This document shows positions 30,339-33,093 of a stretch of DNA of 64,000 bases, piece after piece. The position numbers and the translations under genes were made by a program. The DNA lies in assembly GCA_963675745.2 (NCBI GenBank), contig CAXXWX010000026.1:384001-448000 (forward strand). The letters are read 5' to 3'. A model generated the notes under the pieces. The model was not told where the DNA came from, searched no databases, and worked only from the letters and a program-made list of their open reading frames with translations. Source of the DNA: Phycisphaerae bacterium. GTDB taxonomy: Bacteria > Planctomycetota > Phycisphaerae > UBA1845 > Fen-1342. Each line of letters starts with the position of its first letter. Positions within the stretch are counted from its first letter, which is position 1.

Positions 30339-31919
30339 ATGCACACACAGGCGTTGCCATTTGGCCGTCCTAGCGCATCATGCCGGCGCGCGGCCATTCT
30401 GGCATCGATTTCCGGACCTGCCATCTGGATTGTCACGCAGCCATGCGCCGCAATCGCCATCACGTTCTGCCTGGTACCGTTGCTGCTGGCCATTCGCGGC
30501 CAGAAGGCGCGGCATGCGTTTCTGCTCGGGTGGCTGGCCGGCACGATCGGCTTCACGCTGATCGGGTTGGGCACTCTGGATCCGCTAACGAACTACTACA
30601 ACCTCCAACCTGTCGCCGTGATCATCCTGGCGAGTCTTCTGGCACTATCCGTCGGTCTCCCGCTGGCGCTGTTTGCCGCGTTCATGGCCCGACTCGACGG
30701 AGCGGTCGGCCCTACGGCGCGCGTGATCCTGGGCGCCGCCGCGCTGGCGGTCATTGACACCGCGGCGGCGGACTGCTGGCTGCCATCACGAACAACACAA
30801 CTCGCCGCCACGCTCTGGCCACATCCCCAGTGGCTACAGACGGCGGCCCTGTTCGGAACCGCCGGCCCGATGTTCGTCTTTGCGGCCGTGAACATCGCCA
30901 TCGCCGAACTGATCGGCTCCTCGCGCGCTGCCGGAATGACCCGACGCGCACTGCCGGCGGCGGGAGTCGCATTGATGACCGTGGTGGCGGCCGTCGCATA
31001 TGGAGCGGAGCGTCAGCGCGCCTTTGCGTCCAACAGCGTCCACACGCCGAAAATCCGTTGCGCCGAGCCGTATCAGGCGCCCGCGCTGGCGACCGGTCCC
31101 GCGAACCAACGGGCAACGCTCCTCCTGCTTCCCGAGACCTATGTGGATCTTAGCAACTCCACACATGCCGCCTGGCTCGGCAACGTCATCGCAGACCGAC
31201 AGCCGGGGAACCCAGAGCTGCTGCTGGGCGTGCGGCGCGTCTTGCGCGGGGGGATGCGGCAGAACAGCGCATTGCTGATTTCAGACGACGCGCTCACCTG
31301 GTACAACAAACGGCGCCTGTTTCCATTCACCGAGCATTACCCCCTGGGACGTTTCGACCCGCTTGGACGACGGCGGGCCGGATTCCCCGGGATGCAGATG
31401 GGCGACGGTGATCAGCCCTTGCTGCGCCCCGCGAATTGCGCCGTGGCGACGCTGATCTGCGTCGAGGTGATGCACCCCCACCTCGCCGCCGACGACGTGC
31501 GACGTGGCGCGCGCGCAATCATCGCCTTGAGCAACGAAGAAGCGGTTCGCTCGGCGTCACTGGCCGACCGCGTCGTCGGTCAATGTGTGTTGCGCGCGAT
31601 CGAGAACCGCCGGCCGCTGGTGCGCACCGAGCGGACCGGACGGTCGCTCGCGGTTACGGCAGATGGTGACCTGTGCGCCACTGCGCCGGACGTGCAACCG
31701 CAAACAACGCACGATATCCGACCGGCACGACAAGGATCGTTGACATTCTACAGCCGGACACAGCCAATCCAGGCGACCATCACCAGCTTGGGTGCCGGCA
31801 TCGTCGCGCTGGTGTGTTGCCTCCCCGTTTCACGCCTGGCGCGGATGCGCGCCGCGGCACCGGCGACACCGAGGCGGCGACCCGACGACCATCACCTGTT
31901 CCAGATTGTTGAGGTATGA
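30339..31919 (+). CDS. Divergent apolipoprotein N-acyltransferase (Lnt-like)
   Basis: Multi-TM N-half plus nitrilase fold with E (LLPET), K (YNKRRLFPFTE), C (LICVE) and RAIENRRP. Start codon uncertain. Confidence 0.8.
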   Translation: MHTQALPFGRPSASCRRAAILASISGPAIWIVTQPCAAIAITFCLVPLLLAIRGQKARHAFLLGWLAGTIGFTLIGLGTLDPLTNYYNLQPVAVIILASLLALSVGLPLALFAAFMARLDGAVGPTARVILGAAALAVIDTAAADCWLPSRTTQLAATLWPHPQWLQTAALFGTAGPMFVFAAVNIAIAELIGSSRAAGMTRRALPAAGVALMTVVAAVAYGAERQRAFASNSVHTPKIRCAEPYQAPALATGPANQRATLLLLPETYVDLSNSTHAAWLGNVIADRQPGNPELLLGVRRVLRGGMRQNSALLISDDALTWYNKRRLFPFTEHYPLGRFDPLGRRRAGFPGMQMGDGDQPLLRPANCAVATLICVEVMHPHLAADDVRRGARAIIALSNEEAVRSASLADRVVGQCVLRAIENRRPLVRTERTGRSLAVTADGDLCATAPDVQPQTTHDIRPARQGSLTFYSRTQPIQATITSLGAGIVALVCCLPVSRLARMRAAAPATPRRRPDDHHLFQIVEV

Positions 31920-32221
31920 CTGCGATGTATGCTTATGCGCGTCTGTGGAAGTTGTTGGCCGTGGCTGCTGTCGCCACTTTTGTGATCATGGCCCCAACGG
32001 CCGCGATCGCCGGCGGTGGAGGTGGAGCCGGTGGGGGCGGGGACGATGGTGGGGACGGAGGGGGAGGGGGAGGGGGTGGTGGTGGCGGGGCTGCGACGGC
32101 GCCGGAGCCCGGCCCCGTTGCGCTTACGCTCATCGCCGGCGCCGCGGCCATCACCGGAGCGGTATTCAACAGACGAAGACGGCCCCAGCGCGGCGGCGGG
32201 CCTGACGAGTCGCAGGGATGA
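31916..32221 (+). CDS. Small glycine-rich PEP-CTERM-type protein
   Basis: Signal peptide ending AIA, oligo-Gly core, APEPG motif, TM helix and RRRR cluster. Confidence 0.85.
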   Translation: MTAMYAYARLWKLLAVAAVATFVIMAPTAAIAGGGGGAGGGGDDGGDGGGGGGGGGGGAATAPEPGPVALTLIAGAAAITGAVFNRRRRPQRGGGPDESQG

Positions 32222-33093
32222 TACTCGTCTCGCGTCCTCTCCAGCGGCCGGCCGCAATCCCGCTCGTGATTCTCTTGTTGAGCGCAGGCGCGATGGCGGC
32301 GCGCCTCGCGCTCGCCCCCGCGGGCCGCTGGAAGCTGGCGATGATTGCGCTGCCGCTTTTGATCGCAGCCGGACTGCGCTGGCTGCAACTGGCCGGCGAA
32401 CTCCCAGTGCGCTCGCGGCGAGCGCTCTTGCCGGTCTGGATCGGCGTAGCATCAAGCGCGACCGCGACATTTGTGCTGCCGCTGGAGCTTCTTGGCGTTA
32501 CTTGGGCTCTCACGTTCCTGGGAACATCCGCCGCCCTGTTCGGTCCGTGCGGTCCGCGCCGCATGGCGGCCGCCTGCTTCGGACTACTGCTTGTCGGTCT
32601 CCCTCTCGATGTGCCGGCCGAGCTGATCCCTCTCCTGCAAAACACGCTCGCGTCGGCTGTGGCCGGCATGTCGCTGGTGGCGGGGGGTGAGCTCACCGCG
32701 CACGACGCGATGCTGCACTGGCCGGGCGGACAGGTCTGTGTGGCGCCGGAGTGCTGTGGACTGAACACCTGGCAAATCGCGGTCGCCTGGGCGTGGTTTC
32801 TAGCCTGTGCCGGCGACCTGTCATTCCGGCGGGCAGCCGCGTTCGTCGTATTCGCAGTCTGTCTGGCCGGCCTGGCGAATGTGCTGCGCGTTGTCTGTCT
32901 CGTCGCGCTGGCACGGCGATTCGGAACGGAAGCCCTTGAGGGAATCAGTCACTCAACGGTCGGCTTGGTGATTTTCATGGTGATGTGGGCGGTGCTGATC
33001 GCCTTGTGGCGAAGATGGCAGACCGATTGGCAACCGCGGAGCGCGGCCCCGACTGACGCACACCCTGGAAGACCGCCGTCTGCGTTTTGCTGA
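32218..33093 (+). CDS. Exosortase/archaeosortase-family protein
   Basis: Multi-TM protein with putative catalytic C (VAPECCG), R (ANVLRV) and H (ISHSTVG). Confidence 0.88.
   Translation: MILVSRPLQRPAAIPLVILLLSAGAMAARLALAPAGRWKLAMIALPLLIAAGLRWLQLAGELPVRSRRALLPVWIGVASSATATFVLPLELLGVTWALTFLGTSAALFGPCGPRRMAAACFGLLLVGLPLDVPAELIPLLQNTLASAVAGMSLVAGGELTAHDAMLHWPGGQVCVAPECCGLNTWQIAVAWAWFLACAGDLSFRRAAAFVVFAVCLAGLANVLRVVCLVALARRFGTEALEGISHSTVGLVIFMVMWAVLIALWRRWQTDWQPRSAAPTDAHPGRPPSAFC

What the first reader, a model, noticed from the sequence alone, without database searches (positions are those of the whole stretch)
30339..33093. Coupled cassette: Lnt-like acyltransferase, oligoglycine PEP-CTERM miniprotein and dedicated exosortase
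Seen: three co-oriented genes joined by ATGA stop/start overlaps at 31916-31919 and 32218-32221, with the sorting substrate between the two membrane enzymes. Established: exosortases act on PEP-CTERM tails, and dedicated pairs with small low-complexity substrates exist (e.g. exosortase E/VPEID-CTERM); Lnt transfers a phospholipid acyl chain to a free N-terminal amine. Inference: this is a self-contained pathway making a ribosomally encoded lipopeptide, processed at the C-terminus by the exosortase and acylated by the Lnt paralog. I do not know of a described exosortase system with an Lnt partner.
Basis: partly seen in the sequence, partly recalled or inferred. Interest (0 to 1): 0.85.

Follow-up and report, generated by a model that had tools for sequence, protein, structure and literature searches.

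The report
Exosortase-Lnt cassette with polyglycine cargo
Three overlapping genes encode a tiny glycine-rich protein that is predicted to be exported, flanked by a protein-sorting protease and a remodelled fatty-acid-transferring enzyme; together they likely make a small lipid-anchored peptide by an undescribed route, but this exact arrangement was found in only this one genome.

Summary
Observation confirmed. An Lnt-fold acyltransferase (E266-K324-C374 intact), a 101-aa signal-peptide/polyglycine/PEP-CTERM miniprotein and an exosortase (C179-R224-H245 intact) overlap by ATGA. The genome has a separate housekeeping Lnt, two ordinary exosortases and about 60 other PEP-CTERM proteins. The two near-complete same-genus genomes lack both extra enzymes. 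New support: this Lnt and its one full-length close relative (45%) have lost the two acceptor-portal tryptophans (E. coli W237, W415). The cargo has no Cys or lipobox, so any acylation would be non-canonical. Against: conserved synteny is not shown. No orthologous cassette turned up; 0 of 181 other Lnt loci carried an exosortase; 15 XrtE-like mini-cargo cassettes lacked Lnt; the close relative's neighbourhood could not be fetched. Best reading (0.42): a dedicated exosortase/mini-cargo pair whose N-terminal Gly is likely acylated by the Lnt paralog. Rivals: Lnt is a passenger (0.3), or makes the lipid anchor (0.18). The scan noted exosortase-Lnt-mini-cargo operons before on other DNA (unchecked AI notes, one judging that Lnt ordinary). 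New variant of a known kind; interest 0.55.

The parts
30339..31919 (+). Lnt-fold acyltransferase paralog, 526 aa: membrane domain plus nitrilase domain. Triad E266 (31134-36), K324 (31308-10), C374 (31458-60) and E332 kept. W415-equivalent is Ala402 (31542-44); the QGN..KW (W237) loop is about 17 residues shorter and lacks the Trp.
31916..32011 (+). Predicted signal peptidase I signal peptide (residues 1-32: basic n-region, hydrophobic h-region, Pro at -6, Ala-Ile-Ala at -3 to -1). No Cys, no lipobox. Possible alternative start at 31925.
   Evidence: sequence, hydropathy; judged by eye, no signal-peptide predictor was available
32012..32101 (+). Predicted mature core, residues 33-62: 30 aa, 22 Gly, 3 Asp, starting with five Gly; about 2003 Da monoisotopic
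32102..32221 (+). PEP-CTERM tail: PEP (32102-10), 20-residue hydrophobic stretch, RRRR (32171-82), 12-residue polar tail
   Evidence: TIGR02595 19.5 bits; spacing
32218..33093 (+). Divergent exosortase, 291 aa, about 8 membrane helices; C179-x-G (32752), N221-x-x-R224 (32887), H245-x-x-x-G (32950). Below every named-subfamily cut-off.

Best explanation
The three overlapping genes encode an Lnt-fold acyltransferase, a polyglycine miniprotein with a PEP-CTERM tail and an exosortase, and they likely form one pathway in which the miniprotein is predicted to be exported and cut by signal peptidase I, its new N-terminal glycine would be fatty-acylated by the Lnt paralog, and its tail would be cut off by the exosortase. 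Shown: the three genes, both catalytic triads, the second-copy status of both enzymes, the missing Cys/lipobox, and the loss of the W237 and W415 equivalents. [quoted passage not shown] Steps 1 and 4 are about 0.8 likely, step 3 about 0.45.
For: Both enzymes are extra copies. The genome has a housekeeping Lnt with canonical ICYE/NDGWF motifs and two exosortases beside EpsI-like ORFs. The two near-complete same-genus genomes (97%, 94%) have only the two canonical exosortases and one over-cut-off Lnt. No ortholog of this Lnt was found in the 278 other genomes of the order. All three genes have low codon-adaptation percentiles (13.9, 0.0, 4.7) against 36-66 for six neighbours, and the gene downstream of the flanking M48 peptidase differs among four relatives; both fit gain as one unit. 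Lnt fold: pLDDT 87, Foldseek E 2e-19 to 5n6m. W415 column: W in 112, Y in 3, other in 2, and Ala only in this protein and P0003, of 119 rows; W in 166 and Y in 2 of 168 further distinct Lnts. The catalytic Glu lies 23 residues after the QGN position in both, against a median of 40. In E. coli W237 is needed only for transfer to the apolipoprotein, and W415 lines the access window (PMC6971011, passages). Ordinary Lnt recognises diacylglyceryl-Cys (PMC10313180, passages), which this cargo cannot carry (0 Cys). The tail has 20 residues between PEP and the basic cluster, against 11-17 in 60 other PEP-CTERM tails of the genome and 19-21 in 18 XrtE-type mini-cargo tails. One-to-one enzyme/target gene pairs mark dedicated systems (bioRxiv 2023.06.07.544157, passages).
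Against: No second copy of the cassette was found. The only full-length close Lnt relative is P0003 (45%), plus a 128-aa fragment, and its contig could not be fetched. The exosortase has no close relative (best 27%; long branch of 1.52). 0 of 181 non-own Lnt loci (partly redundant, 1.5-6 kb flanks, all distant Lnts) had an exosortase. Of 191 non-own exosortase loci, 5 (3 genomes) had a catalytic Lnt, and it was ordinary, with no mini cargo. 15 XrtE-like mini-cargo loci had no Lnt, so mini cargo does not need one. E. coli W415A was not detectably expressed, so the Ala could mean damage rather than new specificity. A stand-alone divergent Lnt lacking NDxW occurs in a same-genus genome with no exosortase nearby. 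Membrane and low-complexity genes can lower codon-adaptation scores. The 60 comparison tails were selected by a profile built from short tails, which biases that comparison; tail-profile scores did not separate the two tail types (11.6 vs 10.9 bits). No Lnt acting on a free Gly amine was found in the papers searched.
Confidence: 0.42

Rival explanations
1. The exosortase and miniprotein are a dedicated pair. The Lnt paralog came on the same acquired segment but acts on something else (some lipoproteins or lipids) or is losing function.
For: No conserved synteny was found. Mini-cargo cassettes exist without Lnt (15 loci). Ordinary Lnt sits beside exosortases in 3 Binatia-class genomes. A stand-alone divergent Lnt exists in G338. 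ATGA overlaps are common. AI note e1-974269 judged the Lnt beside a Bradymonadales-like exosortase ordinary (not checked here).
Against: The same portal changes are kept in P0003 at 45% identity with the triad intact, which argues for selection rather than decay. The cargo gene sits between and overlaps both enzymes. A motif scan found only two lipobox-like ORFs in the 64-kb window, both about 10 kb away.
Confidence: 0.3
2. The Lnt paralog does not touch the peptide's N-terminus. It makes or remodels the lipid amine that the exosortase uses as nucleophile, so the peptide ends up anchored through its C-terminus.
For: Precedent: artA is syntenic with pssA/pssD in Methanosarcina, and these lipid enzymes contribute to ArtA-dependent anchoring (PMC7157517, abstract and section 6). 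[quoted passage not shown] Loss of W237/W415 fits any non-lipoprotein acceptor.
Against: It leaves the free N-terminal oligoglycine unexplained. No acceptor-making gene lies in the cassette. The bacterial exosortase nucleophile is not known.
Confidence: 0.18
3. The N-terminal pentaglycine is a sortase-style nucleophile. The exosortase joins the cut C-terminus to Gly33 of the same or another copy (ring or polymer), or joins other PEP-CTERM proteins to it, with Lnt capping chains.
For: The mature N-terminus would be five Gly; oligoglycine is the classic sortase A nucleophile (recalled). The Cys/Arg/His parallel with sortase is noted in PMC1569441 (passages). The genome has about 60 other PEP-CTERM proteins.
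Against: One-step transpeptidation is not shown for exosortases. The 18 XrtE-type mini cargoes seen have unrelated, non-glycine cores, so oligoglycine is not a general feature.
Confidence: 0.1

Closest known systems
Exosortase E/protease with VPEID-CTERM small proteins (TIGR04162; model name, cargo description recalled)
   Same: Dedicated exosortase next to a small signal-peptide + short core + sorting-tail protein; a tail of 19-21 residues like the 20 here; a second membrane enzyme in the module (a CPBP-type EExxxRG motif in all 15 Binatia-class loci).
   Different: The window enzyme does not hit TIGR04162 at E<=0.1, is unfused, its cargo motif is PEP rather than PEID, and the second enzyme is an Lnt-fold acyltransferase.
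XrtA/EpsH exosortase with PEP-CTERM proteins (TIGR03109, TIGR02602, TIGR02595; PMC1569441)
   Same: C-x-G, N-x-x-R and H-x-x-x-G motifs; PEP + hydrophobic helix + basic cluster.
   Different: 62 bits vs cut-off 208 (XrtA) and 51.5 vs 105.55 (EpsH); no EpsI or polysaccharide genes alongside; one tiny adjacent cargo.
Apolipoprotein N-acyltransferase Lnt (TIGR00546; PDB 5n6m, 8b0p)
   Same: Fold, Glu-Lys-Cys triad, E343 equivalent, membrane plus nitrilase domains.
   Different: Below the equivalog cut-off; lacks the W237 loop and W415; second copy; adjacent cargo has no lipobox Cys.
DAG-RiPP lipoprotein hybrids (PMC13056109, passages)
   Same: Small ribosomal peptides lipidated by envelope-biogenesis enzymes.
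   Different: Those use a lipobox Cys and the housekeeping Lgt/LspA/Lnt. Here there is no Cys, the Lnt is a private paralog and the C-terminus is an exosortase tail.
Archaeosortase A with PssA/PssD (PMC7157517)
   Same: A sorting protease of the same family lying next to lipid enzymes.
   Different: Archaeal, large S-layer cargo, and head-group synthesis enzymes rather than an acyltransferase.

Membership tests
Exosortase/archaeosortase family | Match to the family profile above cut-off | tested here: met
   PF09721 69.9 bits (25.7); TIGR04178 46 bits (23)
Exosortase/archaeosortase family | Invariant C-x-G, N-x-x-R, H-x-x-x-G | tested here: met
   C179/G181, N221/R224, H245/G249; motifs defined in PMC1569441
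Exosortase/archaeosortase family | Cleaves its sorting signal | not testable with these tools
   needs biochemistry
Named exosortase subfamilies (XrtA, B, C, D, K, N, T, V, W, X, CrtA-C) | Score above the subfamily cut-off | tested here: not met
   best XrtA 62 vs 208; all others far below
XrtE/VPEID-CTERM | TIGR04162 match and fusion to a CPBP protease domain | tested here: not met
   no TIGR04162 hit at E<=0.1; 291 aa, unfused. A separate TIGR03008 CPBP gene lies 6 kb away on the other strand
XrtE/VPEID-CTERM | Small adjacent cargo with a VPEID-type tail | tested here: inconclusive
   small and adjacent with 20-residue spacing, but the motif is PEP; Atlas first hit 0.89 to a cluster with 16% PF27847, a lead only
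PEP-CTERM proteins (TIGR02595) | PEP, hydrophobic helix and basic cluster near the C-terminus | tested here: met
   19.5 bits vs 16; sequence. No Pfam hit at E<=0.1
PEP-CTERM proteins (TIGR02595) | N-terminal export signal | tested here: inconclusive
   tripartite shape and Ala-x-Ala by eye and hydropathy; no predictor available
Lnt (nitrilase-fold membrane N-acyltransferase) | Membrane domain + nitrilase fold | tested here: met
   PF20154 and PF00795 above cut-off; Foldseek TM 0.72-0.75 to Lnt structures
Lnt (nitrilase-fold membrane N-acyltransferase) | Glu-Lys-Cys triad and E343 equivalent | tested here: met
   E266, K324, C374, E332
Canonical Lnt equivalog (TIGR00546) | Score above 132.9 bits | tested here: not met
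   98.4 bits; P0003 109.2
Canonical Lnt equivalog (TIGR00546) | Acceptor-portal W237 and W415 | tested here: not met
   roles from PMC6971011. W237 was mapped by its distance to the catalytic Glu
Canonical Lnt equivalog (TIGR00546) | Acceptor is diacylglyceryl-Cys | not testable with these tools
   the adjacent cargo has no Cys; the true acceptor needs an assay

The most novel reading that the evidence does not exclude
A private Lnt paralog N-acylates a free glycine without Lgt, LspA or cysteine, and a private exosortase swaps the tail for a lipid. The product is a 30-33-residue polyglycine peptide lipidated at both ends: a ribosomally encoded membrane-to-membrane tether or surfactant, and a cysteine-free route to bacterial lipoproteins.
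Probability: 0.2. Interest if true: 0.88.

Novelty: new variant of a known kind. Interest (0 to 1): 0.55.

Why it matters
What bacterial exosortases attach to their cargo is still open (one-step transpeptidation unproven), and the papers read here describe Lnt acting on diacylglyceryl-Cys acceptors. This 2.75-kb cassette offers a 2-kDa core with one amine and one cut site, so both questions can be read by mass spectrometry in a laboratory host. If the Lnt acylates Gly33, it would be a cysteine-independent protein lipidation enzyme, useful for understanding Lnt specificity and as a lipidation tool. If not, it is still an unnamed dedicated exosortase/mini-cargo pair.

Tried and rejected
Ortholog searches. 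The search for homologous proteins gave 1 non-self hit for the exosortase (27%), 11 hits for the Lnt with only P0003 close, and only low-complexity Gly matches for the miniprotein (discarded). The 1.84-billion representative search gave nothing at E<=1e-30. Lnt searches over 301 class, 279 order, 351 phylum, 151 and 171 other-phylum genomes gave only ordinary Lnts, best 157.7 bits with canonical NDxW motifs. These are samples, with only 3-9 candidates scored per genome. Pattern scans of metagenome contigs (75 loci), genome contigs (7 loci) and viral contigs (0 of 15 stretches) found no close relative. The top PF09721 list for the order showed only canonical enzymes, so 74 genomes, nearly all with 3 or more matches, were re-searched and 80 of about 130 weak sites fetched: no catalytic Lnt nearby. 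The Lnt-exosortase complex prediction returned no verdict (score 0.00) and is not used either way. Fold searches of the exosortase model gave no informative match. No RNA holder was listed. Promoter/terminator scan and folding of the upstream spacer were uninformative (z -0.61). Tail-profile scores did not separate tail types. The Lnt tree placed the window protein with P0003 on a long branch with no supported sister group. The cluster-member look-up could not be made, and P0003's contig stayed unseen. Rejected: that this is the housekeeping Lnt, XrtE membership, and an assembly artefact in the cassette. Myxococcota/Bradymonadales genomes named in earlier notes could not be reached.
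Full report
1. Observation. The three ORFs and both ATGA overlaps are present as described. Gene 1 (30339-31919) matches PF20154 and PF00795 above cut-off and TIGR00546 at 98.4 bits, below its 132.9 cut-off. Gene 2 (31916-32221) matches TIGR02595 at 19.5 bits (cut-off 16). Gene 3 (32218-33093) matches PF09721 at 69.9 bits and stays below every named exosortase subfamily. A contig from what is probably the source sample spans 28500-34528 without differences. 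The overlaps show an operon but are not rare: 197 of 1705 close co-directional pairs in a crude gene set allow one. A GAGGT element fits the ATG at 31925 better than the one at 31916 (sequence). The label Phycisphaerae for the host comes from AI note e1-8392122 and was not tested.

2. Genome context. The genome (91% complete, 6% contaminated) has 3 PF09721 genes: two canonical ones (206 and 175 bits) beside EpsI-like ORFs, and this one (68 bits) (the EpsI label is my reading of the sequences). It has two Lnts with membrane domains: the housekeeping copy on C3 (230.8 bits; ICYE and NDGWF motifs) and this one; three other hits match only the nitrilase domain. A profile of 26 regex-chosen tails found 60 other PEP-CTERM ORFs, 58 of them at least 190 aa stop-to-stop; the miniprotein did not reach that profile's 10-bit threshold. 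Same-genus genomes G339 (97%) and G340 (94%) have only two exosortases and one over-cut-off Lnt; G338 (68%) has one exosortase over cut-off. G338 also carries an unrelated stand-alone divergent Lnt with no exosortase on its 7.8-kb contig. The gene downstream of the flanking M48 peptidase differs in 4 of 4 relatives examined. Codon-adaptation percentiles are 13.9, 0.0 and 4.7 for the cassette and 36-66 for six neighbours; membrane and low-complexity content may contribute. Inference: the cassette was gained as a unit.

3. The enzymes. The Lnt model is confident (pLDDT 87.1, pTM 0.89) and matches Lnt structures (E 2e-19, TM 0.72-0.75). E266, K324, C374 and E332 align with the catalytic and hinge residues. 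Two portal features are lost. At the W415 column 112 of 119 aligned proteins have W and 3 have Y; only this protein and P0003 have Ala. Of 168 further distinct Lnts from fetched loci, 166 have W and 2 have Y. The QGN..KW segment that carries W237 (mapped by distance: 30 residues before the catalytic Glu in E. coli numbering, 31 in the consensus) is shortened: 23 residues from the Q position to the Glu in both proteins, against a median of 40 in 113 rows (a noisy regex measure). In E. coli W237 is needed only for the second half-reaction. W415 forms the bottom of the access window, and W415A protein was undetectable (PMC6971011, passages). Diacylglyceryl-Cys is the recognised acceptor (PMC10313180, passages). 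Sharing these changes with a 45%-identical protein while keeping the triad suggests a selected change of acceptor, though reduced function is not excluded. The exosortase keeps C179-x-G, N221-x-x-R224 and H245-x-x-x-G, the motifs defined in PMC1569441 (passages). It has about eight helices in the model (pLDDT 76.9) and a terminal branch of 1.52 against a median of 0.29 among 162 core sequences.

4. The cargo. Residues 1-32 look like a signal peptidase I signal (by eye). The predicted core is 30 aa with 22 Gly and begins with five Gly. There is no Cys, and the only Lys is in the signal peptide, so the Gly33 alpha-amine would be the only amine. PEP is followed by 20 residues before RRRR, against 11-17 in the genome's 60 other tails (a selection biased to short tails) and 19-21 in 18 mini-cargo tails from 15 Binatia-class loci. 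The exosortases in those 15 loci are long ORFs with a CPBP-type motif; two similar long enzymes from other loci had TIGR04162 (XrtE) as best hit.

5. Synteny test. This was the decisive test, and it was not passed. Only P0003 (45%) and a 128-aa fragment belong to the Lnt subfamily, and their DNA was out of reach. No ortholog appeared in 278 other genomes of the order, nor in samples of 300 class, 350 phylum, 150 and 170 other-phylum genomes, nor in pattern scans. Pooling all 396 loci: 0 of 181 non-own loci brought in as Lnt had an exosortase core (redundant loci included; flanks 1.5-6 kb, often cut by contig ends; all are distant Lnts, so this does not test the subfamily). Of 191 non-own exosortase loci, 5 loci from 3 genomes had a catalytic Lnt. 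These 3 came from 50 of 80 Binatia-class sites examined and share one gene order; each shows an ordinary Lnt (246.5 bits for the one scanned, NDAWY) directly upstream of a 160-aa XrtH/X-like exosortase, with no mini cargo. In the window's own order, 9 of 80 weak exosortase sites had a membrane-domain-only Lnt derivative ending in RAPP or RGPP, as in AI note e1-5242136; these are not significantly similar to the window Lnt. AI notes e1-1395560, e1-974268 and e1-974269 report exosortase + Lnt + tiny cargo + CPBP operons in other lineages, one with a 70-residue glycine-rich cargo, and one judges its Lnt ordinary. I could not check them and do not count them as support. One unpublished genome (G536) contributes one locus to each pooled negative count.

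6. Mechanism. Best reading (0.42): export, cleavage after Ala32, tethering by the PEP-CTERM helix, Lnt-paralog acylation of Gly33, then exosortase cleavage with release or lipid attachment. The exosortase-cargo link is about 0.8 likely; the Lnt-cargo link is the weak step. Rivals: Lnt as passenger (0.30); Lnt making the lipid nucleophile for the exosortase, with precedent in artA-pssA-pssD synteny (PMC7157517, abstract and section 6) (0.18); oligoglycine as transpeptidation nucleophile (0.10).

7. Literature. Searches for exosortase + N-acyltransferase (6 papers), exosortase + PEP-CTERM (30 of 53 listed), VPEID-CTERM (0), exosortase/lipopeptide/N-acylation (12 of 150 listed), Lnt/paralog/non-lipoprotein substrate (12 of 186 listed), exosortase/ribosomally synthesized/Lnt (15 of 16 listed) and PEP-CTERM + Phycisphaerae (2 listed) showed no title or abstract opening describing an exosortase-Lnt pathway. 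The library lacks most subscription papers. Haft 2012 and Craig 2011 were not held; the first is recalled, and the second was seen only as a title. Passages were also seen from bioRxiv 2023.06.07.544157, PMC12188702, PMC13056109 and PMC12078418. No supplements were read; subfamily tables in them could name such a system.

8. Verdict. Real and anatomically coherent. It works like a dedicated XrtE-type exosortase/mini-cargo module but is not an XrtE member, and it has an Lnt-fold enzyme that fails the canonical Lnt tests at the acceptor portal. New variant of a known kind. Interest 0.55, held down by the lack of a second copy and raised by the ease of the mass-spectrometry test.

Noticed in passing
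window 39112-39879 (-): CAAX/CPBP protease of the PEP-CTERM-system family TIGR03008, above cut-off (90.8 vs 81.05), 6 kb from the cassette on the opposite strand; a link to the cassette was not tested.
   Followed up: partly
L282, L291, L292, L310, L317, L318, L319, L321, L323 (family f3 of the same order): Membrane-domain-only Lnt derivatives ending in RAPP/RGPP near short exosortases, in several cases upstream of IP[TA][LV]S-type tail cargo; 9 of 80 sites. Matches AI note e1-5242136.
   Followed up: partly
L192:3007-5133, L207:4513-6674, L210:4418-6555 (Binatia class): Ordinary Lnt directly upstream of a 160-aa XrtH/X-like exosortase and a membrane partner, downstream of genes resembling a methylamine dehydrogenase (mau) cluster (recalled resemblance); no mini cargo seen.
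   Followed up: partly
L171, L182, L184, L186, L189, L191, L193-L195, L205, L206, L209, L213, L214, L216: XrtE-like long exosortases with one or two tiny PE[ILV]D-tailed cargoes whose cores differ widely (Trp/Pro-rich, Arg/Pro-rich, Cys-containing).
   Followed up: partly
L397:2959-4452 (G338, same genus): Stand-alone divergent Lnt paralog (497-aa ORF) with Glu, Lys and Cys motifs but no NDxW motif, and no exosortase on its contig.
   Followed up: partly
window 34616: Contigs of runs X1 and X2 lack one base here relative to the window. It lies just upstream of the called M48 peptidase start (33109-34578), whose relatives begin earlier, so the window may carry a one-base assembly error.
   Followed up: no
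window 26942-30142 (+): ThuA + HEAT-repeat + F5/8 type C fusion; in 4 of 5 relatives the ThuA and HEAT parts match on separate contigs.
   Followed up: no
window 40138-43028 (+): Two consecutive predicted secreted proteins of 452 and about 450-496 aa with repeated helical motifs; the first has no NCBIfam hit.
   Followed up: no
G535 (L089, L357, L387, L391-L393): One Binatia genome holds five Lnt-like genes and no PF09721 match.
   Followed up: no
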